Part shown: positions 6,701 through 40,223 of the stretch, piece after piece
Position numbering within the stretch: position 1 is the first letter of the stretch
Layout: every line of letters starts with the position of its first letter
Position numbers and translations under genes: made by a program
NCBI GenBank assembly: GCA_043737705.1
Contig: JAYTAD010000014.1
Location: 1-42,657, forward strand
Length of the DNA: 42,657 nt
DNA from: Candidatus Saccharimonadota bacterium
GTDB taxonomy: Bacteria > Patescibacteriota > Saccharimonadia > Saccharimonadales > Saccharimonadaceae
Direction: 5' to 3'
The notes under the pieces: model-generated
The model's database searches: none
What the model was told of the DNA's origin: nothing
The model's input: only the letters and a program-made list of their open reading frames with translations

Positions 6701-6770
6701 ACGACTCCTTCTTTGTTTTATTATTTCGTCGATAGTACTCATGGATGAGATGTGGCAGAGCAAGAAAAGG

Positions 6771-9947: not shown

Positions 9948-10022
9948 TGGGATGTGGCCAAGTGGTAAGGCGCTGGTTTCTGGTACCAGTATTCGGGGGT
10001 TCGAATCCCTCCATCCCAGCCA
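9948..10022 (+). tRNA. tRNA-Gln (anticodon CUG), CCA encoded
   Basis: The cloverleaf folds by hand. Acceptor stem TGGGATG/CATCCCA has the U1-A72 pair typical of tRNA-Gln. The anticodon arm is CTGGT-TTCTGGT-ACCAG, the T arm is GGGGG-TTCGAAT-CCCTC, the discriminator is G, and CCA follows. Confidence 0.9.
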
Positions 10023-16291: not shown

Positions 16292-16711
16292 ATGAACATG
16301 ACTTCATATAGTTGCTGTGATACGGCTTCAAATAAATCTACCGAAATCCAATCTTTGTCCAGCCTGCTAAAACTTGTAGGTGACGAAACACGGCTTCGAT
16401 TGCTGTGTATTTTGAAAGATGGAGGTGAGCATTGCGTGTGTGAGTTGATTGAACATGCCAAAGATCTATCTCAAAGTCTCGTATCGCACCATCTTGCCGA
16501 CCTCAAAAAGGCCGGACTAGTCAAGTCGAAGAAGGTTGGTTTGCGTGTCTACTACACCCTAGCCCACGAAGGTACTTACATTGTCGAAACAATTTTTAAA
16601 TTAACAGAAAAGGAGAATAATATTAATGAAAAAAATACAGATAGAAGTTGTCGGAACGGGATGTGCAACGTGTCAGCAACTACACCAAATAACCAAAGTT
16701 GTTGCAGCTGA
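16292..16711 (+). CDS. arsR: ArsR/SmtB-family metalloid-responsive repressor
   Basis: It carries the wHTH LSQSLVSHHLADLKKAGLV and the classical CVC site (GEHCVCELIEH). A Cys-rich tail (SCRNGMCNVSATTPNNQSCCS) overlaps the next gene by 86 nt. Confidence 0.75.
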   Translation: MNMTSYSCCDTASNKSTEIQSLSSLLKLVGDETRLRLLCILKDGGEHCVCELIEHAKDLSQSLVSHHLADLKKAGLVKSKKVGLRVYYTLAHEGTYIVETIFKLTEKENNINEKNTDRSCRNGMCNVSATTPNNQSCCS

Positions 16712-16883
16712 GATTGGCCCCGACGTATCGGTTGACTATATATCCGGTCAGGACGGCATGAAGCGCCTCATGGCGTTAGGTCTGATGCAGTCGCCAGCCC
16801 TAGTGGTCAACGGTAAGGTTGTCATGGTGGGCTACAATTCTAGTACCGAAAAAATTAGAGCTTTGATTTTAGAAAACACCTAA
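16626..16883 (+). CDS. Small thioredoxin-fold protein (redox-active disulfide protein 2 type)
   Basis: AAGGAG SD is present, with a GTGCATCQQ CxxC motif. It is 85 aa and is the typical partner of ArsP-type permeases. Confidence 0.75.
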   Translation: MKKIQIEVVGTGCATCQQLHQITKVVAAEIGPDVSVDYISGQDGMKRLMALGLMQSPALVVNGKVVMVGYNSSTEKIRALILENT

Positions 16884-16886
16884 ACC

Positions 16887-17870
16887 GTGGATATTTTTGC
16901 CCCCCTGCAGTCTTTCGCTGACTGGTTGACCTATAGCGTCTTTTCGCTTCAACACGGTACCAGGCTGGCTGGTACTATAAACTTTTTTGTGTACGATAGC
17001 GTAAAAATTGTCCTACTTCTCTTGGTAATTAATTACATTATGGCGGTCATTCGTTACTACCTTCCGATTGAGAAAATACGAGACTTTTTACAGAGTCGTA
17101 AGTGGTACGGCGCCGATCACCTGTTGGCGGCGGGTTTTGGTGCCATCACGCCTTTTTGTTCTTGTTCCTCCATTCCGTTATTCGTCGGCTTTTTAGGAGC
17201 CGGTATCCCGATTGGTGTGACCTTTTCGTTCCTTATCACCTCGCCGCTAGTCAATGAAGCTGCTATCGCCCTGTTTATTGGCCTATTTGGCCTCAAAATA
17301 ACCGTTTTATATGTGGCCGCGGGTATTTTGCTTGGAGTGATTGGCGGCCTGGTGCTTAGTCGGGTCAATGTTAACAAACACATTAGCGCCGATATACTAG
17401 AAATGAGTAAAGGAGCAAAGATTGTCGGCCCGGCAGTTTCACAGGCTGCATTTAACCGCGAGCTCTTAGTGGCGTGGTGGGGCGAAGGCCTAACACTTAC
17501 GAAGAAGCTTATTCCCTATGTCCTTTTGGGTGTTGGGCTGGGAGCAGCTATTCACGGCTTCGTGCCGCAGGACTTTTTTGCTCACACGCTCAGCAGTGGG
17601 GCTTGGTGGACGGTCTCGCTAGCGGCAATCGTGGCTGTGCCGCTGTATTCGAATGCGGTCGCGGTTATACCAATCATGCAGGCACTGGTCGGTGTTGGGG
17701 TGCCGTTTGGGACGGCCATAGCTTTTATGATGGCAACGGTTGGCCTGTCGCTCCCCGAGGCCCTAATCTTAAAGAAAGTTATGAGCTTAAAACTCCTGGC
17801 AATGTACTTTGGGGTAGTGACCGTTGGAATTATCTGTATTGGGTACTTATTTAACCTCATACTGCCGTAA
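16887..17870 (+). CDS. arsP: ArsP-type permease (PF03773-like, TPFCSCS motif)
   Basis: GTG start and about 8 TM. The ITPFCSCSSIPLF motif contains a vicinal Cys pair, recalled as the ArsP organoarsenical efflux signature. Confidence 0.7.
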   Translation: MDIFAPLQSFADWLTYSVFSLQHGTRLAGTINFFVYDSVKIVLLLLVINYIMAVIRYYLPIEKIRDFLQSRKWYGADHLLAAGFGAITPFCSCSSIPLFVGFLGAGIPIGVTFSFLITSPLVNEAAIALFIGLFGLKITVLYVAAGILLGVIGGLVLSRVNVNKHISADILEMSKGAKIVGPAVSQAAFNRELLVAWWGEGLTLTKKLIPYVLLGVGLGAAIHGFVPQDFFAHTLSSGAWWTVSLAAIVAVPLYSNAVAVIPIMQALVGVGVPFGTAIAFMMATVGLSLPEALILKKVMSLKLLAMYFGVVTVGIICIGYLFNLILP

Positions 17871-17890
17871 GAGTATAATCGGTTATCTTA

Positions 17891-18145
17891 CTAAAATCGC
17901 TTTAATCCTAACTCAGTTGAAAATCGTTGTCTGTCAAAGCCAAGAATATTAACAGTTGAGCCGTTGTCTTTTTCGATAACACTAAAGGGTACGCCCATTT
18001 GGCCACTAATACGTACCATATTTTGAGCGGCAACTGGGTTGATGTCAACGCTGTAATCGGTGAAGTCTATATCTTTATCTTGTAGCCATGATTTGAGCGC
18101 GTGGCAATAGCCACAGGTTTTTGTACTATAGATTGTTATTTTCAT
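17891..18145 (-). CDS. Glutaredoxin-like protein (NrdH/YruB type)
   Basis: It begins MKITIYSTKTCGYCHALK (CxxC) and continues with GVPFSVI. 84 aa. Confidence 0.8.
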   Translation of the reverse strand: MKITIYSTKTCGYCHALKSWLQDKDIDFTDYSVDINPVAAQNMVRISGQMGVPFSVIEKDNGSTVNILGFDRQRFSTELGLKRF

Positions 18146-18157
18146 TTTTTAACTCCT

Positions 18158-18553
18158 TTATTTAATCTGTTTGCCACCGAGCGTAACAACGTTATCCAGG
18201 CCACCAAGGTTTATGACGTTTGTGTAGCCCGCCTGCTCTAAGATGGTTTGCGCCTCGCCTGCTCTATTGCCGCTTCGGCAGTAGAGATATAGTTTTTTAT
18301 CTTTTGCACCTGTTGGTAATTGCCCTGATTGGATGCTTGCGAGCGGAACATTCACCGCGCCGTCTATGAAACCTGCCTTAAATTCTTCGGGCGTTCGAAC
18401 GTCGATGAGCTGCCCGCCTGCTTTTATATCGGACTGTATCGTCGTTATAGACAACTCGTCTTTCGAAGTCCCGGCTGACTGGTTGTTAGTCGTAAACACA
18501 AACAGCAGTGCACCCACTAACGCTACCGCGATTGCTATGATAACTATTTTCAT
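18158..18553 (-). CDS. Membrane-anchored single-domain rhodanese (sulfurtransferase)
   Basis: N-terminal TM helix and the active-site loop YCRSGNRAG. I set the start at 18553 because of an ATGA overlap with the Fur stop. The ORF track start at 18577 is the alternative. Confidence 0.75.
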   Translation of the reverse strand: MKIVIIAIAVALVGALLFVFTTNNQSAGTSKDELSITTIQSDIKAGGQLIDVRTPEEFKAGFIDGAVNVPLASIQSGQLPTGAKDKKLYLYCRSGNRAGEAQTILEQAGYTNVINLGGLDNVVTLGGKQIK

Positions 18554-18960
18554 ACTGTAACTTTCTTTTTCAAACATCGCTCACAAGTTCCGTAAATCAC
18601 CAGGTTGCCGGTAATTTTGCAGTCACCCAGTGCGCTGCTGATTGCCGGCAAGATATCCGTCGCGACATTGATATTTCGTATGCCATCACAACCGTTACAT
18701 ATAAAATGATCGTGCGACGTTGTTGTCGCATCATAGCGCATGGAGCCGTGATTATTTACGGGCGCCTCGAACACTTTACCGTGCTCAAAAAGCCGCGCCG
18801 TAGCCCTGTGTACGGTTGTTGAACTTACTTTTGGAAACGCACTACGCAATACTGATAGTAATTCGGCATTTGTCGCATGTCCAAGGCTAGTAATAGCAAC
18901 CAAAAGTTCTTTGCTGTATTTTGTGTCACGACTTACTTTCATATTCTTATTGTAAATCAT
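18550..18960 (-). CDS. Fur-family metalloregulator (Fur/Zur/PerR type not resolved)
   Basis: wHTH N-domain, HDHFICNGCDG and GTCERC (two CxxC motifs). 136 aa. Confidence 0.8.
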   Translation of the reverse strand: MIYNKNMKVSRDTKYSKELLVAITSLGHATNAELLSVLRSAFPKVSSTTVHRATARLFEHGKVFEAPVNNHGSMRYDATTTSHDHFICNGCDGIRNINVATDILPAISSALGDCKITGNLVIYGTCERCLKKKVTV

Positions 18961-18974
18961 TTACAATAAGAATA
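18942..18974. promoter_or_regulatory. 33-bp perfect palindrome (16-1-16) with a Fur-type 7-1-7 core; candidate operator
   Basis: The sequence TATTCTTATTGTAAAT-C-ATTTACAATAAGAATA was verified base by base. It is centred on 18958, covers the fur start codon and first codons, and overlaps TACAAT boxes for the divergent rhodanese gene. Confidence 0.65.
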
Positions 18975-18996
18975 CAATGGGTAGATAACTAAAGGA

Positions 18997-19272
18997 ATGA
19001 AAAATTTAATGAACAGAATATTAATAGACGTCCGTGAGCCATCAGAGTTTGCTCGGGGTCACGCCAACGGAGCAATTAACATATCACCAATGGAAATTAT
19101 GCGTGGCGCAAAAGACTTGACTGATGTACCAAAAGACACAGAGCTAATTTTATACTGCGTGTCTGGTAGTCGCTCTAATGCTTCGATAAATATACTTCGA
19201 CAACTTGGTTTTACTAATCTTGTAAATGGAGTAAACAAAGATCAAGTTCGGGCAAAATACGGCACTATTTAG
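18997..19272 (+). CDS. Single-domain rhodanese
   Basis: Motifs DVREPSEF and the active-site loop YCVSGSRS. 91 aa. Confidence 0.8.
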   Translation: MKNLMNRILIDVREPSEFARGHANGAINISPMEIMRGAKDLTDVPKDTELILYCVSGSRSNASINILRQLGFTNLVNGVNKDQVRAKYGTI

Positions 19273-19463: not shown

Positions 19464-19682
19464 TTATTCGCGGACGTAAAGACTTCTAACCTTTTTCGTC
19501 ATAAGCCTAAATTCTTGTCTCATGTCTTTGATATTTCCCTTTAGCTCGGTTTCTAGCCTTGCTTGTAGTTCATCTAAAACATCTCTTGACGGTCTTATGG
19601 CTGTGTATATGTATTCTTGATAAGGTAGTCTTAGTGATTCTTGTTGCTTAACTTTTTTAGTTCTAAAATATTGAAACATCAT
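19464..19682 (-). CDS. Hypothetical 72-aa protein
   Basis: Taken from ORF 19464..19694. GAGGAG precedes the internal ATGATG, so the start is probably 19682 or 19679. Confidence 0.4.
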   Translation of the reverse strand: MMFQYFRTKKVKQQESLRLPYQEYIYTAIRPSRDVLDELQARLETELKGNIKDMRQEFRLMTKKVRSLYVRE

Positions 19683-19948
19683 TACTCCTCGCATTAGTAA
19701 TTTTTGTTAAATATGCATACCGGTCTTTGTAACATCTTCCTTTCAGGTGATGTGTGCAATAAGGTAACTTGTCATTGTATAGTGTAATGTTTCCGTTATT
19801 GTGTGTATGTAAGTATTCTTACAAAGCTAGCACATAATATATATTGGCAAAGTGAACGCACGAAAAGCACTCTTATTGCTACGAATACAGATGGTATACC
19901 GGTAGCTCAGCGGTGAATGAGAGTTGCTGGTCTTATTGCCTGTAACCT

Positions 19949-21466
19949 TTAATTTGAGCGTGAAAACAATCGAGATTTACGAGAGCTATCTTTGGAGCGA
20001 TCTGCAGTAAGCTTTTTTTTAGCAATTTCCTTTAAAGATTTTTCTTCATCTCGTTTTTTATCATTATAAGTTTTTTTCGGAGATTTGCCCTTTTCGAAAA
20101 GTTTATGACAACAAACGCAGATATCACAACCTCCAACAAGTGTTTTGTCGGACCACCAACTTAGGTTGCCGCGAGTCGGACAGTTTAGTATGCGGCAGAC
20201 GCCAATTTTTGGTTTACCAAAATTATCAGGTGTATTTTGAGCATTGAAGGCTCTTTGTATAATTGTAGATTCAGAAGTCGCGTCGGTTGTTGATACGGTT
20301 GAATTGCCTACGCTATATTCTGGACAACCATTGCTGTCGTAGGTTTCGCCGGAGGCCTTGGCCTCTCCACCGTAATGTGACAGAGCGGCGTAATTTGCCC
20401 CTTCCCCACTATCAGAACGCTCTAGGTCGCCCAAGAGCTTACTGTCGGCTTTGTCTATCACGCTGGCTATACTATGGATGACTTCGCTGATTATGTTGTG
20501 AGCCATTTCTTTGGATATGGCTTGACCCTCTTTTAGCCGATAGCTACTTCCGAACTTGTCGGTCACTCGCATTAGTTCGGCTGTCACAACACCTTGACTT
20601 GATGCAAGAGTTTTAATTGTATCTGTATAGATTGACGTCAGTTTGGGCTGACTTCGAACTTTTAACAAACCGTTCTTTTTCTCTTCGTTTTTATCTTTTT
20701 CGAGTCCAAAACTATACTGTTTATTATTCTGTTTTTCTAGTAATTGGTCATAGGTTGCCACGTAGTGATCGGTAAACTTAGCAGCTTTAGTTAAGTTGGG
20801 TGAATAGAATTCGTAGTTGTTTTGTAAGAGCTCTTGTTCAGTTGTCCCAGTTGTGGCATCGGCGTCTAGTTTTTTGCGCAGTTCATTAAATCGTTCCATG
20901 CTTGGGCTGTATAAAGACACAAAATGCCCCTCCAGCAAATCGTTACTCGTCTTTTGGTATATTCGAGAAATAGCTATTTTTTGTTTTCCAATTGGCAAAG
21001 ATTCAAATATCAAATAAGCACCAGTTGGGGCAGTTTTAAACCAAGCGGCTAATTTAGTCACTTCTTGGGCTTCTGTTTCTGCTCGCGCCAACTCATCTGC
21101 TATATCGGGATTTTTGACCGTTTCTGTTTTGAATATCTCTAAGTTTGTTTTAGTCATTGAATTCATTGAAACTCTATCTTTAACAGACACGAAATCATTG
21201 CCAGTAAACTCGAAACTGACATTATTTACGAAAGGAGTTTTTGGCAGGCGTTCAGCAATGTCTGTCTCTAAATCTTCTTTTATCCCAACGAGAGCCTTGT
21301 CGCCCTTTTCGAGATATTGGTACAAGTGTGTTAATGGATCATTGATGCCCAAATACTCTAGCCTAAGAGCCAGCCGTCCCATATACATAACATGTTCTTG
21401 ATTGATAGTTTCTGAGAGTGGACGCTTTGTCTCGAGCGTCAATCTTTTTAGTGTAGCTGTTTCCAA
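19949..21466 (-). CDS. Orphan 505-aa soluble protein with a C-terminal zinc-ribbon-like Cys cluster and a Lys-rich tail
   Basis: TTG start (21466-21464) with AGGGG 8 nt upstream. No TM helix or signal peptide. The C-terminus carries CRILNC-X17-CDICVCC followed by KKTYNDKKRDEEKSLKEIAKKK. No family recognised. Confidence 0.65.
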   Translation of the reverse strand: METATLKRLTLETKRPLSETINQEHVMYMGRLALRLEYLGINDPLTHLYQYLEKGDKALVGIKEDLETDIAERLPKTPFVNNVSFEFTGNDFVSVKDRVSMNSMTKTNLEIFKTETVKNPDIADELARAETEAQEVTKLAAWFKTAPTGAYLIFESLPIGKQKIAISRIYQKTSNDLLEGHFVSLYSPSMERFNELRKKLDADATTGTTEQELLQNNYEFYSPNLTKAAKFTDHYVATYDQLLEKQNNKQYSFGLEKDKNEEKKNGLLKVRSQPKLTSIYTDTIKTLASSQGVVTAELMRVTDKFGSSYRLKEGQAISKEMAHNIISEVIHSIASVIDKADSKLLGDLERSDSGEGANYAALSHYGGEAKASGETYDSNGCPEYSVGNSTVSTTDATSESTIIQRAFNAQNTPDNFGKPKIGVCRILNCPTRGNLSWWSDKTLVGGCDICVCCHKLFEKGKSPKKTYNDKKRDEEKSLKEIAKKKLTADRSKDSSRKSRLFSRSN

Positions 21467-21469
21467 TTT

Positions 21470-21615
21470 AATAACCCCTACTTACGAGCAGGGGCCATTA
21501 AAAATAACGACTACTCCTGCTCGGAAGATTTATAACTGTATCGGACTTAGCATTTCTGCCTTACCGTTGCGGCACAGTCCCGGATTTACACCGGGTTCCA
21601 GTATGTTTACTTGTT
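21470..21615 (-). promoter_or_regulatory. Cobalamin (B12) riboswitch, compact variant, plus SD-sequestering expression platform
   Basis: The minus-strand RNA reads ACUGGAACCCGGUGUAAAUCCGGGACUGUGCCGCAACGGUAAGGCAGAAAUGCUAAGUCCGAUACAGU. This fits the recalled consensus GGAA-N-CnGGUG-n-AAAUCCnG-n-CnG-n-CC-GCnACnGUAA and a B12-box-like AAGUCCGAUAC. Downstream, the helix CGAGCAGG/CCUGCUCG (21516-21523/21485-21492) competes with CCCCU (21490-21494) pairing to the SD AGGGG (21475-21479). Confidence 0.7.
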
Positions 21616-21749
21616 AATACTAATGAGTATGCGTTATTAGTGTCGCTTTGTCGAGTGGTAACGCTATATATAGCTATTTTTGTCTCAAAATTGTCTTCAA
21701 AGTGATCGATAGCTGCAGGACTGAGCCCTTTTTGCTATAATTCATAAAT

Positions 21750-22472
21750 ATGCACACAACTCCAAATCCCTATCTCCATGTCGAATCACACAACGGTAAC
21801 ATCAGTGGTAAATCAAACTGGCTCAGGGCCGCTGTCTTAGGTGCTAATGACGGTATTGTCTCGATTGCCGGGCTTGTAGTTGGCGTCGCTGGAGCGACGA
21901 GTTCAAAACTCATTATCCTGACGGCCGGAATTGCCGGTATCGTTGCTGGCGCCTTATCGATGGCGGCTGGTGAATACGTGTCGGTTAGTACCCAGCGAGA
22001 TATCGAAAAAGCCTTATTAGAAAAAGAACGGCAGGAGTTAATTGACAACCCTGAAGAAGAACTAGAAGAATTAAAGTTACTCTATCAAGCCAAAGGTCTC
22101 ACCGAAGGTACTGCGCTAATAGTTGCTAAAGAATTAACAGAGCATGATGCTTTTGCGGCCCACGTTGACATCGAGTTACATATCGATCCGAATAACTTAA
22201 CTAACCCGTGGCATGCCGCCTACGCCTCATCTGCTTCGTTCTTGGTTGGAGCGATGATTCCACTGGGTGTAATTATGCTTCCGTTGGGATCATCGACGGT
22301 AGCCATTACCTTTTTGTCTGTCGTCGTCGCTTTGATTATTACTGGTTTCTTAAGCGCTAAAGCTGGCGGAGCTAATATACGAGCATCTGTCATACGTGTT
22401 GTTGCCGGTGGTGTGCTGGCTATGGTTGTAACTTACGCAATTGGCCGTCTATTTAATATTTCGGGTGTTTGA
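21750..22472 (+). CDS. VIT1/CCC1-family Fe/Mn transporter
   Basis: The motif NWLRAAVLGANDGIVSIAGLVVGVAG is followed by an acidic cytosolic helix region and C-terminal TM helices. TATAAT lies about 8 nt upstream of the ATG. Confidence 0.8.
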   Translation: MHTTPNPYLHVESHNGNISGKSNWLRAAVLGANDGIVSIAGLVVGVAGATSSKLIILTAGIAGIVAGALSMAAGEYVSVSTQRDIEKALLEKERQELIDNPEEELEELKLLYQAKGLTEGTALIVAKELTEHDAFAAHVDIELHIDPNNLTNPWHAAYASSASFLVGAMIPLGVIMLPLGSSTVAITFLSVVVALIITGFLSAKAGGANIRASVIRVVAGGVLAMVVTYAIGRLFNISGV

Positions 22473-23120: not shown

Positions 23121-23516
23121 TTAGCCGAAGAAGAAGTTGTATACGACAGAAAAAACGTTATTGTTACCACTTTGGTTATTAGTAAGGTTGGTCTTTATGG
23201 AATTTTTGTTGCCACCACCGTAACCGCTCCCGCCGCCGTAGCCGTGGTTGCCGTTGTTGGAGTGATGTTCTTTGTCTCTTTGGTTAGCGTGATGCGGCTT
23301 GTCTCTCTGGTTTTGATCGTTCTTTTCATTCTCCTTATTGTTGTCTTTTTCGAGAGACGTTGCATCTTTGTCTTTGTTAGAGTCTTTGAGCGGCGTTGCA
23401 CCGGCAATCGTAGCTGAGCTGACGACAGTCAGTAGCATAAGTGAAGCTGCACCAAGCGCAAGCTTACTAGCTGCACCCTTTGTATTTAGTGTTAATGTAT
23501 GTATGCGGTTACCCAT
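23121..23516 (-). CDS. Secreted or anchored low-complexity protein (Asn/Lys/His/Gly-rich)
   Basis: AAGGAGG SD, N-terminal hydrophobic segment, an HH..HH and GYGGGSGYGGG region, and an aromatic C-terminus. Confidence 0.5.
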   Translation of the reverse strand: MGNRIHTLTLNTKGAASKLALGAASLMLLTVVSSATIAGATPLKDSNKDKDATSLEKDNNKENEKNDQNQRDKPHHANQRDKEHHSNNGNHGYGGGSGYGGGNKNSIKTNLTNNQSGNNNVFSVVYNFFFG

Positions 23517-23651: not shown

Positions 23652-24206
23652 TTATCTACGACGCGAAGCCTTGTCGCGGATAACCATACGTCGGGTTTCT
23701 CTCGTTAAACAGACTAAGCCAATACACAGTAAAAAAAATACAAATAGTGCACTATTGTTGACTTGTCCTGTTCCTCGCAATAATAGGAATTGGATACCGA
23801 TACCGGCCAACACTACGGTGGCTAGCCAAAAAGAGACGCGACTTGGGATGCGCCGTATAACTGCCAATAGACCGTATGCAAAGATAAAGCCTTCGGCGAC
23901 AACCGGAATAGTAGATAGCTGTATGCTGGCAATAATGATAAACGGCGCTCCCACAACAAGGGTATGCTCTTGAAGCCATTGGATTAAACGTCTTTTCCAT
24001 AAAACGATTTTTGTCTGCACAGGACGCACGCTATGAGATACTATGGGTGTTACTACTACAGGCTGGGCCTCAGGCTGTATAGCGGCGGCCGTGTGGCGTG
24101 TTTGACGTGGGCGCACGTCTTGGATGAGACCCCAGCCAGGACGTCGTAGCGGCCGGTTGTTAGCGTCATGCGGCAATTGGCTCGATGCTTGCAGCGTGTC
24201 TGTCAT
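23652..24206 (-). CDS. Membrane protein (3-4 TM) with a Pro/Arg-rich N-terminus
   Basis: ATGA overlap with the upstream gene makes it the last gene of the glycan operon. Confidence 0.5.
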   Translation of the reverse strand: MTDTLQASSQLPHDANNRPLRRPGWGLIQDVRPRQTRHTAAAIQPEAQPVVVTPIVSHSVRPVQTKIVLWKRRLIQWLQEHTLVVGAPFIIIASIQLSTIPVVAEGFIFAYGLLAVIRRIPSRVSFWLATVVLAGIGIQFLLLRGTGQVNNSALFVFFLLCIGLVCLTRETRRMVIRDKASRRR

Positions 24207-25867
24207 TTACTCTCCTCTTTGAACGCGGTGTTGCGATATAACTTTAGTGTCGCAGTGTCGGTTATTAGCTGAATGTCAGTTTGGTGGTCCAGGTAACTGT
24301 ACGCTTGATAATCATCATCTTTGGCCAATAGAATGTACTTTACTTGTAGTGGTACTAGTCGCTGACCTAGTGTGTATGATTGGGACGCTTGGGGTAAAAT
24401 TCGTGTCGTTAAAAGCTGTTTCTGAGTATTAACTACGGCTGGTTTTATGTTGCCTAGCTCTGGGTTGTCGCTTATTAACAACGGCTTATCAAAAAAACTT
24501 TCTCCTGGGTTTGCAATCAACCGCCCGGCGAATTGATAGCGCATATACAAATGCCACGGTAAAAACAATACTTGATATGTACCGGCATCTGTATTAAGTC
24601 GCTCGTTGACCGCATACCAGTCAGCTGGATAGTGCCGCGGCGTCAGTTGGCCGTCAAACCCTCGGAACATGACGGGCGTCAAACCGATTAATAGGAGCGC
24701 GAAAACGATGCCACTAGCCAGTCGTCCGGCTTTTGAATGGACTTTTGCCAAAAGTTCGGATATCGCAAACCCAATAAATACCGCGTAACCAAGCGCCACT
24801 AGCGCGACGAACTTATGGGGCTCACGGTATCCGGCAAAAAATGGCAGGTTCTCCGCCAACCACGTCGTGCCGACACCAGCCGCCAGCAAAACTGCAATGG
24901 ATATACTAGCAGTAAATAGTATGCCTGTCTCGCGCTTCTGTCGCCAGGCAATTACAGCACCGGTTATGATAAGTGCCCATATTAAGCTAACAACCAAGCC
25001 CCACCCAGTTAGTTTGTCCTGCGGAAGCGCGAACAAGTCGTGACGCTCTCCCCAGAATCCCTGGAGGCGTAAAACATGCATTAATTTTCCACCTATTCCC
25101 TCGCCTTCCGTCGCAAACTCAGACTGATCACTATCACGAAAAGTAACGATAGAGGCCGCCGTCGTGCCACTCCCCTGCACAAGAGGTACTAACCAATAAC
25201 TACTGGTGAGTAAAAAGATTAAACTGGCAGCTCCACCGTATTTTGCCAGTTTTTTAAGATACGGGGCGTTTGCACGGTTATGCCATAACGATTGCAGTAG
25301 CGCAACAACCGTAATGACAACGACTAACCCAAGAGTGTGAATTGACACAATACTGATACCAACAGTTACTAATGTCAACAGCATCGCTTTTTTGAATGAC
25401 GGGTCTGATAGAAACTGCAATAGCGCTACTACAAAAAATGGCAAAAGCGCATAGCCGAGCAGTACCGAGTATTGGCCAGCCATAAACCGTGAATACGTAA
25501 ATGGATTTATCATATAGATTAGTCCGCTGGCGTAGGCTGCCCATGTCGTAACAACGACTGGCGTATTTCTCATTTGTAAGAAGTTCATTAATTGGTGCAT
25601 GCCTAATCCTGAAATCACTAAAATAGCAAACAGTACTAGCTTTTGGATTATGTCGCTTGGAATAATAAGGCTTAGTATGTGCAAACCAGCTCGAAACAAG
25701 TAGCTGCTAGTGACCGTTTGGGGCAGAGCTAGGTTTGGCGTAAAAACCATGTCGAGCGTCAGGATAAATCCGGGACCTAGTAGCGGCCACAGGATGAGTA
25801 AAGCTACGGCACTGTAAAAAAACATTATTATCCAATTATTTTTAATTACTTTCGGGAAACCGTTCAT
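24203..25867 (-). CDS. Large polytopic membrane protein, GT-C-like glycosyltransferase candidate
   Basis: About 12 TM, an acidic first-loop motif (LDMVFTP) and a soluble C-terminal domain. The assignment is by architecture only. Confidence 0.45.
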   Translation of the reverse strand: MNGFPKVIKNNWIIMFFYSAVALLILWPLLGPGFILTLDMVFTPNLALPQTVTSSYLFRAGLHILSLIIPSDIIQKLVLFAILVISGLGMHQLMNFLQMRNTPVVVTTWAAYASGLIYMINPFTYSRFMAGQYSVLLGYALLPFFVVALLQFLSDPSFKKAMLLTLVTVGISIVSIHTLGLVVVITVVALLQSLWHNRANAPYLKKLAKYGGAASLIFLLTSSYWLVPLVQGSGTTAASIVTFRDSDQSEFATEGEGIGGKLMHVLRLQGFWGERHDLFALPQDKLTGWGLVVSLIWALIITGAVIAWRQKRETGILFTASISIAVLLAAGVGTTWLAENLPFFAGYREPHKFVALVALGYAVFIGFAISELLAKVHSKAGRLASGIVFALLLIGLTPVMFRGFDGQLTPRHYPADWYAVNERLNTDAGTYQVLFLPWHLYMRYQFAGRLIANPGESFFDKPLLISDNPELGNIKPAVVNTQKQLLTTRILPQASQSYTLGQRLVPLQVKYILLAKDDDYQAYSYLDHQTDIQLITDTATLKLYRNTAFKEESK

Positions 25868-28689
25868 TATCGATACTTCCCTCGTGCATGCTTTTCGGTG
25901 ATAGACATGTGCTTTCTTTTATATATAAAATAGCCAATAATTACCAAGAGTGTCAACGTGCTTATAGCGGCGCCAACATACAGCCAGCGCTGCGGAGCAA
26001 ATTCCATGACTAAGGTCAAATCATACGACCCGTCGCTATTTTGCTTGCAAGAAGATTTACATAGTTCGCTTGGGTCAACCAACCAACCATTCATAGAGTT
26101 GTTAATTTTAATATGATCCTTATCTGTTACCAAAGTGCCGTTATTCAATCCTAAGCTCCAGCGGGGACTATAACTTTCCTTGGTTTCAAGATAAAAAGCC
26201 GAGCGAGCCCCTTCTATATGTACAACGCTTTTAGTGGGGTCTATTGTCTTAAAACTTACTTTCTTCGGTTGTTGTAAGACTTTTTTAGGCTCACTCACTA
26301 GGTAAAAACGGTTTTGGATGTTTGGGGTTGCAATCAGCCGAAAGTTATCATATCGAGTAAGACCCGTATCGATACCGGAATTATCGGGGTAAGCGTAGAG
26401 CAGTATTCTCAAATTATGCGCGCCAGGTGGAGCCACAATGTTTTTTGTTAGCGTGTTCCACTTTCCAGGGGTATCATCTAGGCGTTGGAAGATTGAAGTG
26501 TTTGCTTCATCGTCAAAACTAATGTTATAGGCCGCGAATCGCCCATTTAAACTTTTATAATCGAAACTTAACAGGTAATGTTGTTCTGCTTGCACGGGAA
26601 TATCATTTGGTCCTGTACAGGCAACGTGATTTTGTGCCTCAAGCTGTAAAGACGAAGTGCCATCCGTTTGATCATTCTTCGCCGTACTCATACCGATTTC
26701 CCCGTCGTTACCATATGCGTAACAATCACTCACTTGCCGTTGCCATAGTCCTTGTTCTAAGGATGGGTTCGGAAAGATATTTTTAAAATCGTATTTTTGG
26801 TCGTTATAGTCAAGGTGTAGTTTGCTTGAGGGCGGTATATTGATGGTCTGGTCTTCGCCGTTAGAGCTTAGTGGCTGGTAGCTTTGCCGCTGCTCGGGCG
26901 TAAGGAAAAGTTGGCTACCTGTTAAATTGTAGTTAAGATTATCGGTATTTCTTAGGTAGAGGGTTTGCTTCCCGGAGTTCATCGATGAGGGTAAGCTTGT
27001 TTTAATCGAGCCTTCCTTTAGATCTTTAAACGTCATGTTTTCGTAGGCGTTTTGCAGCCCAGTAGTAGTAGCCGTTGCGCCAGCCGGGGTATCGGTAAAA
27101 TCAAATTCTGAGTTTAGTGTTTTTGTAATCAACCGATACTTGTTGCCTATTTGTTGGGGTTTTTCGAGTGCGAAAACTTTTTGATTCGAGTAGATGTATG
27201 CTTTTGGCCTATTGTTACGATAAAGCTGGAAGGCATTGTCGACAAACGTGTCCTGCGGGCTGAAGTCATAATCTTGTAGTGTCGGCGCCGCGGTATTTTG
27301 GCAACCTAGGACATAGTCATATGAGCCCAAATTGACAGTGTCGGCAACGTCTAGCCCCATTTGTTTTACCTGAACATTTTTTGACGTCAGTATTTGGTTT
27401 AGTTCAGTTATGATTTGCGGATGGCTTGAGGCATAAGAAAAACAACTCTCGTCGTTGACGATTAACAGGTTCTTTTGATTGAGGTCGGTTTGCTGCAGCG
27501 CGCCAAAATAACTAATTTCACGAGGCGTCAACAGCTTGTTATAGACATCCAGGCCGATATAGGTGTTCATAAACAAGAAACTTACCGCCAAGCCTGAATA
27601 TAAAACTATTCGATTGGATTTTTTAGTCACGTTGGCTAACACTATAGCCAGCATAGTAGCAATGGCGAATGGCATATATAACTGCCATTTTAAGGGTGAA
27701 CGAAACATCCAGCCGCCCGGTAAGCCAACGACAATCTTAATAAGATCTTTGACAAATAAATAGTTTACAGCTGCCAACAGCAGTAGGATTAAAAATGCGG
27801 CTAATGCCCAAGCAAAACACTTCCTATCTGACACATTTAACTTTTTTTCAACACGTACGTAGGCCCCGAATAAAATGACGTAGAAACTAAAAATACCAAG
27901 GAAGTACAGCGCCTGAGTGTTATCGTTATAAAATTCATAGTCCTTAAGTACTCCTTTGGCGAGAGACATACCGGTGAAAATATCTCCGGTATTAGACACA
28001 TCAATAAGTGAAGTGTAGTCCGTCGGTGTCGATGCGACGCTCGAAGACAACACGTCTTTGTTGACTGAACCAAGGCTTGTTAATGGCAGCAGAAAGTAGG
28101 CGTTGAGTAAAAGCCCTATCAGGCCTAGCAGCAGTAACTTGGGGATATTTTTAAACATGAAGGACTTGTCCTTAAGAGTCATATAGAGCAGATAACTAAC
28201 GGATACAAGAAGGTTCACTGTGAACGTAAATGGGTGGATGAGGGAAATATTGAGACAGGCTATCCATAGCAGAAAGTATCGCAGCTGTTGTCTTTCAAAG
28301 GCTTTTTGTATGGCGATTAGACACAGTGGCAGCATTGCTGCGGCGAGAACAAGACCGATCTTCGAGGCGTTGCCTAAGAAGATCGGGTTAATCGTGAAAA
28401 AGAGCGCAGCGACGATACTCAACGGAATACTGGTAATTTTTAAGAATAGTTTTGAAAAATAGAAGAAAGCTACAAAAACAATCGCGAAACAGGAAAGCAA
28501 ATAAAAAATGCTAACCGGTATGTTGCCCAGCAGTGCAAAAACGAGGACGTCAATGATCCTGCCCGGTATCCTGATGATACCTTCGGGATTAGCCGAGCCC
28601 GTTTGATACGACCAAACATAGACCAACTTCATCCAGTAAAATTGGACATCAAAAGGAAAAATATAATCGCCGTTCGATATAAAACTCAT
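25867..28689 (-). CDS. 940-aa polytopic membrane protein, GT-C/AftD-like candidate with an extracytoplasmic jelly-roll (CBM-like) domain and a C-terminal TM anchor
   Basis: The N-terminal ~430 aa are multi-TM. The central and C-terminal parts are soluble and include LEQGLW...LSFDYKS...RYDNFRLI, which is CBM-like. A terminal TM helix follows. The family call is tentative. Confidence 0.45.
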   Translation of the reverse strand: MSFISNGDYIFPFDVQFYWMKLVYVWSYQTGSANPEGIIRIPGRIIDVLVFALLGNIPVSIFYLLSCFAIVFVAFFYFSKLFLKITSIPLSIVAALFFTINPIFLGNASKIGLVLAAAMLPLCLIAIQKAFERQQLRYFLLWIACLNISLIHPFTFTVNLLVSVSYLLYMTLKDKSFMFKNIPKLLLLGLIGLLLNAYFLLPLTSLGSVNKDVLSSSVASTPTDYTSLIDVSNTGDIFTGMSLAKGVLKDYEFYNDNTQALYFLGIFSFYVILFGAYVRVEKKLNVSDRKCFAWALAAFLILLLLAAVNYLFVKDLIKIVVGLPGGWMFRSPLKWQLYMPFAIATMLAIVLANVTKKSNRIVLYSGLAVSFLFMNTYIGLDVYNKLLTPREISYFGALQQTDLNQKNLLIVNDESCFSYASSHPQIITELNQILTSKNVQVKQMGLDVADTVNLGSYDYVLGCQNTAAPTLQDYDFSPQDTFVDNAFQLYRNNRPKAYIYSNQKVFALEKPQQIGNKYRLITKTLNSEFDFTDTPAGATATTTGLQNAYENMTFKDLKEGSIKTSLPSSMNSGKQTLYLRNTDNLNYNLTGSQLFLTPEQRQSYQPLSSNGEDQTINIPPSSKLHLDYNDQKYDFKNIFPNPSLEQGLWQRQVSDCYAYGNDGEIGMSTAKNDQTDGTSSLQLEAQNHVACTGPNDIPVQAEQHYLLSFDYKSLNGRFAAYNISFDDEANTSIFQRLDDTPGKWNTLTKNIVAPPGAHNLRILLYAYPDNSGIDTGLTRYDNFRLIATPNIQNRFYLVSEPKKVLQQPKKVSFKTIDPTKSVVHIEGARSAFYLETKESYSPRWSLGLNNGTLVTDKDHIKINNSMNGWLVDPSELCKSSCKQNSDGSYDLTLVMEFAPQRWLYVGAAISTLTLLVIIGYFIYKRKHMSITEKHARGKYR

Positions 28690-28693
28690 GAAC

Positions 28694-29752
28694 TTATTTA
28701 ACGGCCTGTTTAAATTTATCTATGAACAGTTGTAGTTCGTGTTGCGAAAGATCGTTGATTTGAATTGGTCGTGTCTTCGTCGTCTTTTTCAATAGTTCGA
28801 GTACTTTGTTGTCATATACTACAGGCAGAAACGTGACGCCAGTCAGGAGGGCAATGATTATGGCGTGAAACTGCGGCCCTATCAGGGCAAGTTGTTCTTT
28901 GTTCTTTTGAAAAAACAAAAACAAAGCGACAGGATTATAGGAAAAATCAAGCGCTTGAACGTTTTGATATTGCTTTTGCCACTTATTGATAAGCTTATAG
29001 CCCGTTGAATCAATTTCGCGTGGCTCTAAAGTCGCGACAATAATGTTGATGTCCTGGTTGTGCGCGAGACAGGCCTCGATGTTTTTGGCGAAGTCATTGT
29101 TTTGGTGTGGTTTGAATCGTCGGAGGGTAATAAACAGCGTTTTGCTATCTATACGTATTGCTTGATCGAGCGCAACAAAGTCTGGTCGGTAGGGCTTCAG
29201 ATTAAGCGACGGAACATGGTAGGCGATGTCGGCGTCTTGGGATACATGCGTACTTACCTTTTGGAAGTTCTGCAGTGACTCCTGGTCGCGAACGATAATG
29301 TAGTTAGCGGCTTTGCCCGCAAGCCAGGCGCTGGCATGACCTAGTTTGTTCGTCGAGTCATAATACCCCACTCCCAACAAATACACTTTTTTTCGCAGAA
29401 AGAAGCGGCTGATAAACAACAGGCTGCTAAAAAGAAAAATATTCGCGTTAACATCGAGTCCCCACAGTCCCCCACCGCCAATAATGACGTTTTTATTCTT
29501 AGCAATAGCTTTAAGTACCGACCATTTGTCTGTCATGTCTATTAGGCCAAAGCCAAAATTGTGGTGGTAGGTAGAATAACGTTCGGCGTGCAAATAAGCC
29601 ACTGTCAACGAATGTACATCGTGCTTTGTAAATAGATTCATTAGCACCTCCAATAACAGTTCGTCGCCAAAGTTACCGCCGCCATAATAGCCGAGTAATA
29701 CACTGTGTTCTAAATCTTCTTTTTGAAATACATCGGCAATAGTCTTATTCAT
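28694..29752 (-). CDS. Polysaccharide pyruvyl transferase family protein
   Basis: The N-terminal GYYGGGNFGDELLLEVL motif is typical of PS_pyruv_trans (CsaB/WcaK-like). Confidence 0.7.
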   Translation of the reverse strand: MNKTIADVFQKEDLEHSVLLGYYGGGNFGDELLLEVLMNLFTKHDVHSLTVAYLHAERYSTYHHNFGFGLIDMTDKWSVLKAIAKNKNVIIGGGGLWGLDVNANIFLFSSLLFISRFFLRKKVYLLGVGYYDSTNKLGHASAWLAGKAANYIIVRDQESLQNFQKVSTHVSQDADIAYHVPSLNLKPYRPDFVALDQAIRIDSKTLFITLRRFKPHQNNDFAKNIEACLAHNQDINIIVATLEPREIDSTGYKLINKWQKQYQNVQALDFSYNPVALFLFFQKNKEQLALIGPQFHAIIIALLTGVTFLPVVYDNKVLELLKKTTKTRPIQINDLSQHELQLFIDKFKQAVK

Positions 29753-30852
29753 ATCTTAATTTCCTCTTTGAACTGTTGGTAACTAGTTTCAAAATTAATA
29801 GCCTTGCTCCACTGCCAAGCATTATTTTGCAGTGTTTGGTAGTTTACTTTATCGGATAATAACCCAACGATGTTTTGTGCCAAATCTGAAGGCGTATTTT
29901 GGTTGCAGATAGTCCCGGTCTTGCCGTTTCTGACACTATCGCGCAGACCATCCACGTTATAAACAACAGCTGGAGTGCCTTGACTGGCGGCTTCGGTGAC
30001 AATTAACCCCCACCCTTCTTTGATGCTTGTGACGGTAATGACATGAGCTTTTTGAAGTAAATCGGATTTTTTTGCCGCTGAAATTCTTCCCAAGTATTCG
30101 ATATCTTGTTTGTATGGACTATTTTTTATGGCCATCAGGACTCTCTGGCCATAACGCCCACTTGCGTCACCGGCAATTTTCATCTGTAATGTCGGCAACG
30201 TTACTTTGGCCAGCTCAAAAGCTCGCACTTGGTCGAGTGTTCGTTTCATGTGTCTGATGCTACCGAGCGATACAACCGTCGGTTTATCATATTTACTAGA
30301 AGGTACAATTTTACGTATTGCCTCAAGCTGGATACCTTCTGATATGACAGCGACATTCTGCGCACGAAAGCCATAGCGGAGTAAATCTTGCTTGGTACTG
30401 TCCGACATAGCTATCGCCTTGTCTTTACTTAAAAACTTCAAGTAGATAGGCTCAAGCACATAACCGATGAGGCTCGCCGGTAGAGGTAATTGATAGAACC
30501 AAATCTCGCGACAGAGCATATGAAAAAACAATAATCGCGGTACTCGACGTAAATAGAGACGACTGATAAACGGTAGTGTGTTGACCTCTTCGACCACAAA
30601 ATCCGGCCAGTCCATTAAGTGTTGGTTAATATAGCGATAGGCTTGCCAATAAACACTGACGCGTCCTCCCACTCTCACTACGCTGTAGCCATCAATACTA
30701 GCCTTCGGTTTGGCTCCAGGGTAACTAGCGGTCACAAGTATGACTTCGTGGCCTTCTTTGACGAGCCGCTTTATGAGTTCCGAGGTGACTGTCTCAGCCC
30801 CGCCGGCCTGTGGGTGTTGAATATCTTTCCAGCTTAGCCACAGTATACGCAC
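29749..30852 (-). CDS. Glycosyltransferase family 4 (GT-B, Glycos_transf_1)
   Basis: The N-terminus GGAETV and the C-terminus EGWGLIVTEAASQGTPAVV (EX7E region) are present. Confidence 0.8.
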   Translation of the reverse strand: MRILWLSWKDIQHPQAGGAETVTSELIKRLVKEGHEVILVTASYPGAKPKASIDGYSVVRVGGRVSVYWQAYRYINQHLMDWPDFVVEEVNTLPFISRLYLRRVPRLLFFHMLCREIWFYQLPLPASLIGYVLEPIYLKFLSKDKAIAMSDSTKQDLLRYGFRAQNVAVISEGIQLEAIRKIVPSSKYDKPTVVSLGSIRHMKRTLDQVRAFELAKVTLPTLQMKIAGDASGRYGQRVLMAIKNSPYKQDIEYLGRISAAKKSDLLQKAHVITVTSIKEGWGLIVTEAASQGTPAVVYNVDGLRDSVRNGKTGTICNQNTPSDLAQNIVGLLSDKVNYQTLQNNAWQWSKAINFETSYQQFKEEIKI

Positions 30853-34571: not shown

Positions 34572-34581
34572 TATAAACAGT

Positions 34582-37296: not shown

Positions 37297-37308
37297 TTTA
37301 ATAAAATA

Positions 37309-38667: not shown

Positions 38668-38683
38668 AGTTCTAATTTTCTTT

Positions 38684-39648: not shown

Positions 39649-39662
39649 TAGTATTTTTTCCT

Positions 39663-40139: not shown

Positions 40140-40223
40140 ATATTTTTCATGCTCCTTATCCTTATGTGCCCTATGATAGCACTCATATAATATATATTCA
40201 AGTATTCTAATATAAGAATGTAT

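What the first reader, a model, noticed from the sequence alone, without database searches (positions are those of the whole stretch)
19949..21615. Compact cobalamin-riboswitch-like leader controlling an orphan zinc-ribbon protein
Read on the minus strand, 21612->21533 is ACUGGAACCCGGUGUAAAUCCGGGACUGUGCCGCAACGGUAAGGCAGAAAUGCUAAGUCCGAUACAGUUAU. From memory, the E. coli btuB leader core is GGGAAUCCAGUGCGAAUCUGGAGCUGACGCGCAGCGGUAAGG with B12 box AAGCCCGAAGACC. The window sequence reproduces the GGAA / CnGGUG-AAAUCC-nG hairpin / GCnACnGUAAGG / AGYCCGAnAC blocks in the same order and spacing. It lacks a long peripheral extension, as class-II (Cbl-II) aptamers do. Internal pairings are present: CCCGG/CCGGG, UGCC/GGCA and ACUGU/ACAGU. 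The expression platform offers two exclusive structures. One is the helix CGAGCAGG/CCUGCUCG. The other is CCCCU pairing with the AGGGG Shine-Dalgarno 8 nt upstream of the TTG start. The controlled gene has no TM segment, signal peptide or recognisable enzyme motif. It shows only a CX4C-X17-CX2CXCC cluster and a Lys-rich tail. B12 riboswitches normally control transporters, cob genes or B12-independent isozymes. This protein is therefore a candidate for a new cobalamin-linked function such as binding, trafficking, a B12-independent substitute enzyme or a regulator.
Basis: partly seen in the sequence, partly recalled or inferred. Interest (0 to 1): 0.78.

Follow-up and report, generated by a model that had tools for sequence, protein, structure and literature searches.

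The report
B12 riboswitch controlling orphan Saccharibacteria protein
A genuine, compact vitamin-B12-sensing RNA switch sits in front of a 505-residue cysteine-rich protein found only in Saccharibacteria; the protein resembles nothing known, and switch and gene stay together across the whole family, so the protein probably has a new B12-related role.

Summary
Rfam RF00174 (Cobalamin) hits the minus strand at 21651-21491 with 32.3 bits, just above the 31.5 gathering score. On its own that is marginal, but comparative evidence settles it.

- **Synteny:** a cobalamin-clan hit lies directly 5' of the homologue, on the same strand, in all 24 homologue loci with upstream sequence. The same holds in five divergent subfamilies sharing only about 20% protein identity.
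- **Covariation:** stems P3, P4, P6 and a P13 hairpin covary (94% of cells paired, 0 of 500 shuffles reach the score).
- **Class:** the aptamer is Cbl-II-like, with no P2 module and only a short hairpin on P6.
- **Switch:** an invariant segment (CCGAGCAGGAG) can form the P13 hairpin or pair with an anti-SD segment. The anti-SD otherwise sequesters the Shine-Dalgarno in a stable, often terminator-like hairpin. This predicts repression by B12.
- **Protein:** it has no Pfam, NCBIfam, PHROG, PADLOC, PDB-sequence or Foldseek match. It has no TM segment. Cys381, Cys450 and Cys453 are invariant, and the tail is Lys-rich.

No B12 gene is linked to it, and its function remains unknown. My best guess is corrinoid handling. 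The riboswitch is ordinary; its exclusive pairing with an orphan family of the candidate phyla radiation (CPR) is the interesting part.

The parts
21626..21654 (-). Sigma-70-like promoter TCGACA-17-CATACT; predicted transcription start near 21619
   Evidence: The same relative position holds TTAACA-16-TATAAT in L012 (11/12) and TTGAGC-17-TATAAT in L023 (10/12). A TATAAT-like box is visible at this place in nearly all leaders.
21611..21618 (-). Conserved 5'-leader motif AUUAACAA, role unexplained (possibly P1 or J1/3, or the initiating region)
   Evidence: Nearly invariant columns in alignment A3. The motif is retained in divergent leaders L032, L034, L038 and L040.
21535..21602 (-). Cobalamin aptamer core: P3 (21602-21599 with 21538-21535), P4 with T-loop-like L4 (21595-21579), P5/L5 GUGCCGC (21576-21568), P6 with a short tip hairpin (21566-21542), B12 box AAGUCCGAUACAGU (21548-21535)
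   Evidence: RF00174 at 32.3 bits; family model R1 at 125.4 bits; covariation in P3, P4 and P6.
21514..21527 (-). P13 hairpin CUUC-CGAGCA-GGAG. The L13 loop is invariant. The hairpin contains switching segment A (CCGAGCAGGAG, 21524-21514).
   Evidence: The stem covaries (CUCC/GGAG, CUCU/AGAG, CUUC/GAAG, AUCC/GGAU, AUCU/AGAU, GUCUU/AAGAC) while the loop is invariant.
21500..21504 (-). U-run between P13 and the anti-SD; possible RNA polymerase pause site (inferred)
   Evidence: A run of at least 5 U is present here in 14 of 23 leaders.
21485..21494 (-). Segment B, the anti-SD CCCCUGCUCG. It pairs either with segment A (antisequestor or antiterminator) or with the SD.
   Evidence: A:B is the minimum-energy fold of the transcript truncated before the SD arm in 23 of 23 leaders. 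B:C is the minimum-energy fold of the complete platform in most.
21475..21482 (-). Segment C, AGUAGGGG, containing the Shine-Dalgarno AGGGG 8 nt before the TTG; followed by a U/A-rich tail (UUAUUAAAUU)
   Evidence: Anti-SD and SD change together between orthologues (window CCCCUGCU/AGUAGGGG, L001 CUCCUACU/AGUAGGAG).
19949..21466 (-). CDS of the 505-aa orphan protein (TTG start). Disordered N-terminus, alpha/beta body, Cys cluster (381, 424, 429, 447, 450, 452, 453, plus His454), Lys-rich C-terminal helix.

Best explanation
The leader at 21619-21467 (minus strand) is a functional, compact (Cbl-II-type) cobalamin riboswitch. It represses the 505-aa gene when a corrinoid, most likely adenosylcobalamin, is abundant.

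Shown computationally:
- The aptamer is conserved and covaries.
- A P13 hairpin follows it, with an invariant CGAGCA loop and a covarying stem.
- The P13 sequence (segment A) is complementary to an anti-SD segment (B).
- B is in turn complementary to the Shine-Dalgarno segment (C).

Inferred mechanism:
- With ligand bound, L13 docks on L5 (the kissing loop common to all cobalamin riboswitches). This holds A in the P13 hairpin, so B pairs with C.
- The resulting stable hairpin buries the SD. In about half of the orthologues it is followed by a U-tract and should also terminate transcription.
- Without ligand, A pairs with B as soon as B is transcribed, and the SD stays free.
- Because B:C is thermodynamically stronger than A:B, the decision must be kinetic (co-transcriptional).

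The controlled gene encodes a cytosolic, Cys-rich, probably metal-binding protein restricted to Saccharibacteria. Its unbroken linkage to the riboswitch implies a B12-related role. The role I consider most likely (about 0.35) is intracellular corrinoid handling: capture, processing such as reduction or adenosylation, or delivery to a B12 enzyme. A B12-sparing substitute function is about 0.25. A nucleic-acid-binding or regulatory role is about 0.2.

The stated confidence of 0.78 applies to the riboswitch, its OFF logic and the B12-regulated orphan family, not to the specific protein role.
For: - **Rfam:** RF00174 is above its gathering score in the window. A cobalamin-clan hit lies on the same strand immediately 5' of the homologue in 24 of 24 loci with upstream sequence, and 15 of these are above a gathering score.
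- **Divergent subfamilies:** the same holds for subfamilies at about 20% identity, with RF01482 at 47.1 bits and RF00174 at 32.4, 27.5 and 24.0 bits.
- **Family model:** model R1 finds exactly one copy per locus in 283 kb, including six non-training loci at 41-56 bits, and no second copy in the window.
- **Covariation:** 94.1% of cells are paired, 9 pairs change on both sides (44 cells), and the score is 0.264 against a shuffle mean of 0.124 (0 of 500 reach it) and at most 0.10 for slid controls. Divergent leaders add more compensatory changes.
- **Promoter:** it is conserved at a fixed distance.
- **Platform:** the SD is paired in the final fold of most leaders. A:B is the minimum-energy fold of the truncated transcript in 23 of 23, favoured by 2.5-12.7 kcal/mol over P13 alone. 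The SD hairpin is called a terminator in L023, and 12 of 23 have at least 5 U in the 8 nt after the hairpin.
- **Class:** the class definitions and the universality of the L5-L13 kissing loop come from PMC7367189.
- **Protein:** there are 95 close and about 159 total relatives among 1.84 billion representatives. All named ones are from Saccharibacteria apart from one contig labelled Nomurabacteria. Invariant residues include C381, C450 and C453. There is no TM segment.
Against: - The window's own Rfam score exceeds the cut-off by only 0.8 bits.
- The L5-L13 kissing loop cannot be tested by covariation because both loops are invariant. The proposed GCCG x CG(A)GC pairing is my own reading.
- In isolation the B:C hairpin is more stable than A:B in most leaders (the window's fold containing B:C is -24.8 kcal/mol), so an equilibrium switch would always be OFF. 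The kinetic model is inferred.
- The window's own hairpin does not meet the terminator criteria.
- No B12-dependent enzyme, transporter or cob gene is linked to the gene in any locus. I could not establish that these organisms use B12.
- Nothing ties the protein biochemically to corrinoids. No member matches any B12-related Pfam family even at E<=1.
Confidence: 0.78

Rival explanations
1. The riboswitch is real, but the protein is a B12-independent substitute. It is switched on when B12 is scarce to replace or bypass a B12-dependent step, following the logic of metE or nrdDG.
For: The predicted OFF logic fits. The protein is cytosolic with conserved Cys, Ser and Asp residues that could be catalytic. 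From established knowledge of B12 regulons, isozymes are a classic class of B12-riboswitch targets.
Against: There is no similarity to MetE, any RNR class or QueH in Pfam, NCBIfam, PDB sequences or Foldseek. The family is confined to one phylum, whereas known B12-independent isozymes are widespread. Reduced Saccharibacteria genomes offer few B12-dependent reactions to replace; that last point is my knowledge and was not tested here.
Confidence: 0.25
2. The riboswitch is real, but the protein is a nucleic-acid-binding or regulatory factor. Its Zn-ribbon-like Cys knuckles and Lys-rich tail would serve that role, and B12 would act mainly as a host-derived or nutritional signal rather than as a substrate.
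For: The sequence shows a C-X4-C...C-X2-C pattern and a basic tail of pI 10.2, predicted to be a long helix. In some lineages the neighbours are RNase H and a PIF1 helicase. Weak low-complexity hits to IF2_N and Topoisom_I occur in single members.
Against: The first Cys knuckle is missing in one subfamily, and the tail is poorly conserved in length and sequence. The RNase H and PIF1 neighbours are not conserved across the family. No DNA- or RNA-binding domain is detected.
Confidence: 0.2
3. The element acts as an ON switch, or it senses a ligand other than a corrinoid despite being homologous to the cobalamin aptamer.
For: The SD-sequestering hairpin is the thermodynamic ground state even without forcing P13. 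One could therefore imagine ligand binding being needed to open it. An activating corrinoid riboswitch has been described (title and abstract of PMC10327014, listed).
Against: The conserved core nucleotides match RF00174, RF01689 and RF01482. P13 formation, which the kissing loop requires, excludes the A:B antisequestor in all 23 leaders, and that is the arrangement of a repressing switch.
Confidence: 0.07
4. The Rfam hit is a chance match just over the threshold, and the leader is an ordinary 5' UTR.
For: The score is 32.3 bits against a 31.5 cut-off. The 5' and 3' parts of cmscan's global alignment are poorly paired and extend upstream of the likely transcription start.
Against: The association with the gene is universal, stem covariation is strong, and loops are invariant across deeply diverged loci.
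Confidence: 0.02

Closest known systems
Cbl-IIb / AdoCbl-II cobalamin riboswitches (Rfam RF01689; class definition in PMC7367189)
   Same: P3-P6 four-way junction core. No P2 module between P1 and P3. No P7-P11 extension. A short hairpin on P6. A P13 hairpin in the expression platform. One orthologue (L027) scores above RF01689's own gathering score, 37.9 against 36.5 bits.
   Different: Most members score best with the general RF00174 model, and one (L032) scores best with RF01482. No P1 helix could be demonstrated. A conserved 5' AUUAACAA motif is unexplained. Ligand selectivity is unknown.
env8 hydroxocobalamin riboswitch (Cbl-IIa, PDB 4FRN, as summarised in PMC7367189)
   Same: Compact aptamer. 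As I recall that system, regulation works through an L5-L13 kissing loop that controls access to the ribosome-binding site.
   Different: Here P6 carries a short hairpin rather than a loop. The SD is not in P13 itself but in a third segment (an A/B/C relay). In about half of the orthologues the final hairpin looks like a terminator.
   Same: Conserved core blocks (GGUG..CC, GCCGCAAC-GU-AA, B12 box) and repression by B12.
   Different: It has the large peripheral extension and P2 module, and it controls an outer-membrane transporter. The window element lacks both and controls a soluble orphan protein.
M. tuberculosis ppe2 B12 riboswitch (PMC11260477, abstract seen)
   Same: A B12 riboswitch in front of a lineage-specific gene of uncertain function.
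   Different: PPE2 is unrelated in sequence. I did not read beyond that paper's abstract.
Cys-dependent corrinoid-handling proteins (BtuM, CblC/MMACHC, EutT-type adenosyltransferase); from my own knowledge, not tested
   Same: They use conserved Cys or metal sites to bind or process cobalamin, and some are B12-regulated. This is only a functional analogy for the proposed role.
   Different: No sequence or fold similarity was detected. The protein is larger, soluble, and has a Lys-rich tail.

Membership tests
Cobalamin riboswitch (Rfam clan CL00101 / RF00174) | Covariance-model score at or above the curated gathering score | tested here: met
   Window 32.3 against 31.5 bits. Orthologues reach up to 41.3 bits, and 15 of 24 homologue loci are above a gathering score.
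Cobalamin riboswitch (Rfam clan CL00101 / RF00174) | Four-way junction P3-P6 with conserved core and B12 box, supported by covariation | tested here: met
   94.1% of cells paired; 9 pairs with compensatory change; 0 of 500 shuffles reach the score. Divergent leaders add covariation in P3, P4 and P6a.
Cobalamin riboswitch (Rfam clan CL00101 / RF00174) | L5-L13 kissing loop linking the aptamer to the expression platform (PMC7367189) | tested here: inconclusive
   A P13 hairpin with a covarying stem and an invariant CGAGCA loop exists, and L5 (GUGCCGC) is invariant. A GCCG x CG(A)GC pairing is possible, but there is no variation to test it.
Cobalamin riboswitch (Rfam clan CL00101 / RF00174) | Binds a corrinoid and changes structure or expression in response | not testable with these tools
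   Needs in-line probing, ITC and reporter assays.
Cbl-II class (against Cbl-I) | No P2 loop-stem-loop between P1 and P3; only a simple stem-loop on P6, with no P7-P11 extension (PMC7367189) | tested here: met
   P6 is capped by a 4-bp hairpin. The predicted transcription start lies only about 17 nt 5' of P3, which leaves no room for P2. Some orthologues have a longer but still simple P6 hairpin.
Cbl-IIb (AdoCbl-selective) against Cbl-IIa (HyCbl/MeCbl-selective) | Short hairpin on P6 and a short paired or mismatched J1/3 (IIb), against a loop and a bulged J1/3 (IIa); ligand selectivity | tested here: inconclusive
   The P6 hairpin and the RF01689 and RF01482 best hits in two orthologues point to IIb. 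P1 and J1/3 could not be defined, and selectivity is experimental.
Zinc-ribbon domain (protein C-terminus) | Two Cys knuckles (CX2-4C ... CX2C) on a small beta-hairpin fold, conserved across the family | tested here: inconclusive
   C424-X4-C429 ... C447-X2-C450 is present, with short strands at 420-422 and 442-444. However, C424 and C429 are absent in one subfamily, and only C381, C450 and C453 are invariant. Only 1 of 34 members touches a Pfam zinc-ribbon model, at E=0.016. An Fe-S site (CxxCxxC plus a remote C-P) is equally possible.
Cytochrome c (CXXCH haem attachment) | CXXCH motif in an exported protein that matches the Pfam model above its cut-off | tested here: not met
   C450-V-C-C453-H454 reads as CXXCH and gives weak PF00034 hits in 5 of 34 members (best E=0.0039). 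No signal peptide or TM segment is present. His454 is not conserved in distant relatives.
Known B12-related protein families (transport, adenosyltransferases, CblC, CbiZ, MetE, RNR classes, QueG/QueH) | Detectable sequence or fold homology | tested here: not met
   No family was found in Pfam (34 members at E<=1), NCBIfam, PHROGs or PADLOC. The PDB sequence profile search found nothing. Foldseek gave a best E of 0.14 against the PDB and 0.016 against BFVD, with TM scores no higher than 0.16 normalised to the query.

The most novel reading that the evidence does not exclude
The 505-aa protein founds a new class of B12-linked proteins unique to Saccharibacteria. It would be either a cytosolic metalloprotein that captures or processes host-derived corrinoids by an unprecedented fold, or a non-homologous replacement for a B12-dependent step. 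These ultra-small episymbionts would then monitor B12, which they cannot make, and rewire themselves when the supply fails.
Probability: 0.45. Interest if true: 0.75.

Novelty: new variant of a known kind. Interest (0 to 1): 0.6.

Why it matters
Unknown genes controlled by a riboswitch have repeatedly led to new transporters and enzymes for the sensed metabolite. In this case the ligand class is known. The linkage is exclusive and ancient, holding down to about 20% protein identity. The target has no detectable homologue or fold. It belongs to CPR bacteria, whose cofactor economy and dependence on hosts are poorly understood. The RNA provides a ready-made handle for experiments on what the protein does: B12-dependent expression. 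If the protein handles corrinoids, it would be a new B12-binding or processing fold. If it is a B12-sparing enzyme, it would reveal a B12-dependent step in Saccharibacteria. If neither holds, it is simply another cobalamin riboswitch in front of a hypothetical protein.

Tried and rejected
- **Protein homology.** I tried Pfam on the protein, on 34 family members at E<=1 and on 10 distant relatives. I also tried NCBIfam, PHROGs, PADLOC, PDB sequence searches (single sequence and profile), and Foldseek of a pLDDT-81 model against the PDB and BFVD. All were negative.
- **Cytochrome c reading of CXXCH.** Rejected: the protein has no export signal, the hits are below cut-off, and the His is not conserved.
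- **Riboswitch controlling the divergent VIT1 gene.** Rejected: VIT1 is on the opposite strand and is a neighbour only in the two closest relatives.
- **Conserved operon partners.** None found. PIF1/CofD, the 76-aa ORF, VIT1 and Na/H-exchanger neighbours are each specific to one lineage.
- **cmscan's global alignment.** I rejected its P1 strand and its placement of the B12 box on CCGAGCAGGAG. The 5' strand lies upstream of the conserved promoter's start site. The P3 and P6 pairings fit AAGUCCGAUACAGU instead.
- **Pure equilibrium SD switch.** Rejected: B:C is more stable than A:B.
- **Literature.** Searches for Saccharibacteria, Patescibacteria or TM7 combined with cobalamin riboswitch, NrdJ or ribonucleotide reductase found nothing relevant.
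Full report
**1. Observation**

One correction applies: the 70-nt string runs from 21602 to 21533, not from 21612.

A scan of the whole window with Rfam 15 at gathering thresholds returns two hits. One is a tRNA-Gln at 9948-10022. The other is RF00174 (Cobalamin) at 21651-21491 on the minus strand, at 32.3 bits against a cut-off of 31.5, E=1.3e-4. That is a pass, but a marginal one.

The downstream ORF, 21466-19949, has a TTG start 8 nt after AGGGG and encodes 505 aa.
- It has no hydrophobic segment (highest 19-residue Kyte-Doolittle mean 0.79).
- The last 50 residues hold 18 K/R, with pI 10.2.

**2. The riboswitch is real: comparative evidence**

The protein has 95 relatives in a database of 5.8 billion clusters. 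All are unnamed or 'hypothetical protein', and every named one is from Candidatus Saccharibacteria.

I fetched 28 loci encoding relatives from genome and metagenome collections.
- In all 24 loci with enough upstream sequence, a cobalamin-clan model hits the same strand immediately 5' of the gene.
- Ten hits exceed the RF00174 gathering score in the first scan.
- Eight more score 22.9-31.3 bits.
- Six more follow, five of them above a gathering score. These include one hit to AdoCbl-II, RF01689, at 37.9 against 36.5 bits.

A profile search of 1.84 billion representatives found about 159 relatives. These include full-length proteins at only about 20% identity that again belong to Saccharibacteria or Saccharimonadales MAGs, apart from one contig labelled Nomurabacteria. 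Their loci carry the riboswitch too:
- RF01482 at 47.1 bits;
- RF00174 at 32.4, 27.5 and 24.0 bits.

A family-specific covariance model (R1) finds exactly one copy per locus in 283 kb. It is always in front of the gene. Six of these loci were not used for training and score 41-56 bits. There is no second copy in the window.

**3. Anatomy of the RNA**

A σ70-like promoter lies at 21654-21626 (TCGACA-17-CATACT). It occupies the same relative position in orthologues, where the match is 10-11 of 12. Transcription should therefore start near 21619.

This means the 5' 'P1' strand in cmscan's global alignment is upstream of the RNA. cmscan also aligned the B12 box to CCGAGCAGGAG.

I scored a manual structure (P3, P4, P5, P6a, P6b, P13) on 22 distinct leaders:

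| Measure | Result |
|---|---|
| Cells forming a standard pair | 94.1% |
| Pairs changed on both sides | 9 (44 cells) |
| Covariation score | 0.264 |
| Shuffle mean | 0.124 (0 of 500 shuffles reach the observed score) |
| Slid controls | at most 0.10 |

The divergent leaders add further compensatory changes:
- P3: ACUG/CAGU, UAAUG/CAUUA, UGAUG/CAUCA.
- P6a: CGG/CCG against CUG/CAG.
- P13 stem: six different variants.
- L5 (GUGCCGC) and the L13 loop (CGAGCA) never change.

By the definitions in PMC7367189, the element is Cbl-II-like. It has a P3-P6 junction, no P2 module, no P7-P11 extension and a P13 hairpin. The short hairpin on P6 and the RF01689 and RF01482 best hits lean towards the AdoCbl-binding IIb type. 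That point is not settled.

**4. Expression platform and mechanism**

Three segments relay the signal:
- **A**, CCGAGCAGGAG (21524-21514), which lies inside P13.
- **B**, CCCCUGCUCG (21494-21485), the anti-SD.
- **C**, AGUAGGGG (21482-21475), which contains the SD.

B and C change together between orthologues (window CCCCUGCU/AGUAGGGG; L001 CUCCUACU/AGUAGGAG).

When the transcript is folded only up to the loop before C, A:B is the minimum-energy structure in 23 of 23 leaders. It has 6-10 pairs and is 2.5-12.7 kcal/mol better than P13 alone.

In the complete platform, B:C is the most stable fold in most leaders, and the SD is buried (the window's fold is -24.8 kcal/mol).

The B:C hairpin has a U-rich tail in many orthologues. 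Twelve of 23 have at least 5 U in the next 8 nt. It meets the terminator criteria in L023 but not in the window.

I therefore infer a kinetic OFF switch:
- Ligand-dependent docking of L13 on L5 keeps A in P13.
- B is then free to sequester the SD and, in many orthologues, to terminate transcription.
- Without ligand, A captures B co-transcriptionally and the SD stays free.

A U-run between P13 and B, present in 14 of 23 leaders, may be a pause site. The kissing loop itself is untestable by covariation. A possible GCCG x CG(A)GC pairing is my own reading.

**5. The protein**

The AlphaFold2 model has mean pLDDT 80.9 and pTM 0.66. It shows:
- a disordered N-terminus (residues 1-38);
- an α/β body;
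- a low-confidence loop after Cys381;
- small β-strands around the Cys knuckles;
- a long basic C-terminal helix.

Foldseek finds nothing in the PDB (best E=0.14) or BFVD (best E=0.016), with TM scores no higher than 0.16 normalised to the query. Pfam, NCBIfam, PHROGs, PADLOC and PDB sequence searches are all empty.

The only recurrent signal is a weak Cytochrom_C hit in 5 of 34 members. It is caused by C450-x-x-C453-H454. I reject a cytochrome c assignment because the protein has no export signal and the His is not conserved.

Across the superfamily, only F79, S156, D240, G254, A369, C381, C450 and C453 are invariant. The first Cys knuckle is absent in one subfamily. The metal site may therefore be a zinc ribbon, or an Fe-S-type site built from CxxCxxC plus a remote Cys-Pro. 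This is undecided.

**6. Context**

No B12 enzyme, transporter or biosynthesis gene is linked to the gene in any locus.
- In the window the gene sits among metal and redox genes: VIT1, a Fur-family regulator, rhodaneses, glutaredoxin, ArsR and ArsP, and a copper ATPase.
- In other lineages it lies between RNase H and PIF1/CofD.
- In others it lies next to a Na/H exchanger and DsbA.
- Only the riboswitch travels with the gene.

**7. Interpretation and novelty**

The RNA is a new member of a well-known class. What is unusual is its exclusive and ancient coupling to an orphan protein family with an unrecognisable fold, restricted to Saccharibacteria.

Literature searches found no description of this.

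The function is not determined. My estimates are:
- corrinoid handling, about 0.35;
- a B12-sparing substitute, about 0.25;
- a nucleic-acid-binding or regulatory role, about 0.2.

I could not check whether these genomes encode B12-dependent enzymes. That inventory, and the biochemical tests listed under next steps, are the decisive experiments.

Noticed in passing
window 21611-21618 (-), and the same place in all loci: An AUUAACAA motif about 6 nt after the -10 box, at the very 5' end of the leader. It is nearly invariant even in the most divergent leaders. No pairing partner was found. It could be P1 or J1/3 of the riboswitch, or an initiation element.
   Followed up: partly
window 21500-21504 (-); orthologous leaders: A U-run of at least 5 between the P13 hairpin and the anti-SD in 14 of 23 leaders. 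It may be a transcriptional pause site that gives time for ligand binding.
   Followed up: partly
window 16292-19272 and 21750-22472: A cluster of metal and thiol homeostasis genes surrounds the locus: ArsR, ArsP-type permease, an 84-aa glutaredoxin/NrdH-like protein (CGYC), two rhodaneses, a Fur-family regulator and a VIT1 transporter. Rhodanese, glutaredoxin and Fur genes also lie 1.5-2 kb downstream of the homologue in L003 and L004.
   Followed up: partly
window 33231-40744: A copper-type module: two paralogous HMA-DsbD_2-cupredoxin fusion proteins flank a P-type ATPase with two HMA domains. Next to them are a DUF411 protein and an ArsR-YHS regulator.
   Followed up: no
window 5819-8459 (-): Two pilin-like proteins with the N-terminal methylation motif. 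One is fused to RCC1 beta-propeller repeats (562 aa) and the other to a glycine-rich domain (314 aa). These are unusual pilin cargo domains for an episymbiont.
   Followed up: no
window 24203-28689 (-): Two large ORFs (554 aa and 940 aa) with no Pfam match, immediately upstream of a polysaccharide and glycosyltransferase cluster (28694-33141).
   Followed up: no
window 19464-19694 (-); L001 5721-5909; L010 5722-5932: A 76-aa ORF about 250 nt downstream of the riboswitch-controlled gene, on the same strand. It is conserved (about 70% identity) in the two closest relatives, so it is probably a real small gene. It is not found in more distant loci.
   Followed up: partly
window 23121-23516 (-): A 131-aa ORF with a hydrophobic N-terminus and an Asn/Gly/His/Lys-rich low-complexity body (repeated 'NQRDK..HH' units). 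It has no family match and could be a metal-binding secreted protein.
   Followed up: no
L034 2841-2986 and L036 404-551: In this divergent subfamily the riboswitch hit overlaps the first ~100 nt of the called gene (start 2876). The public gene call probably starts too far upstream.
   Followed up: no
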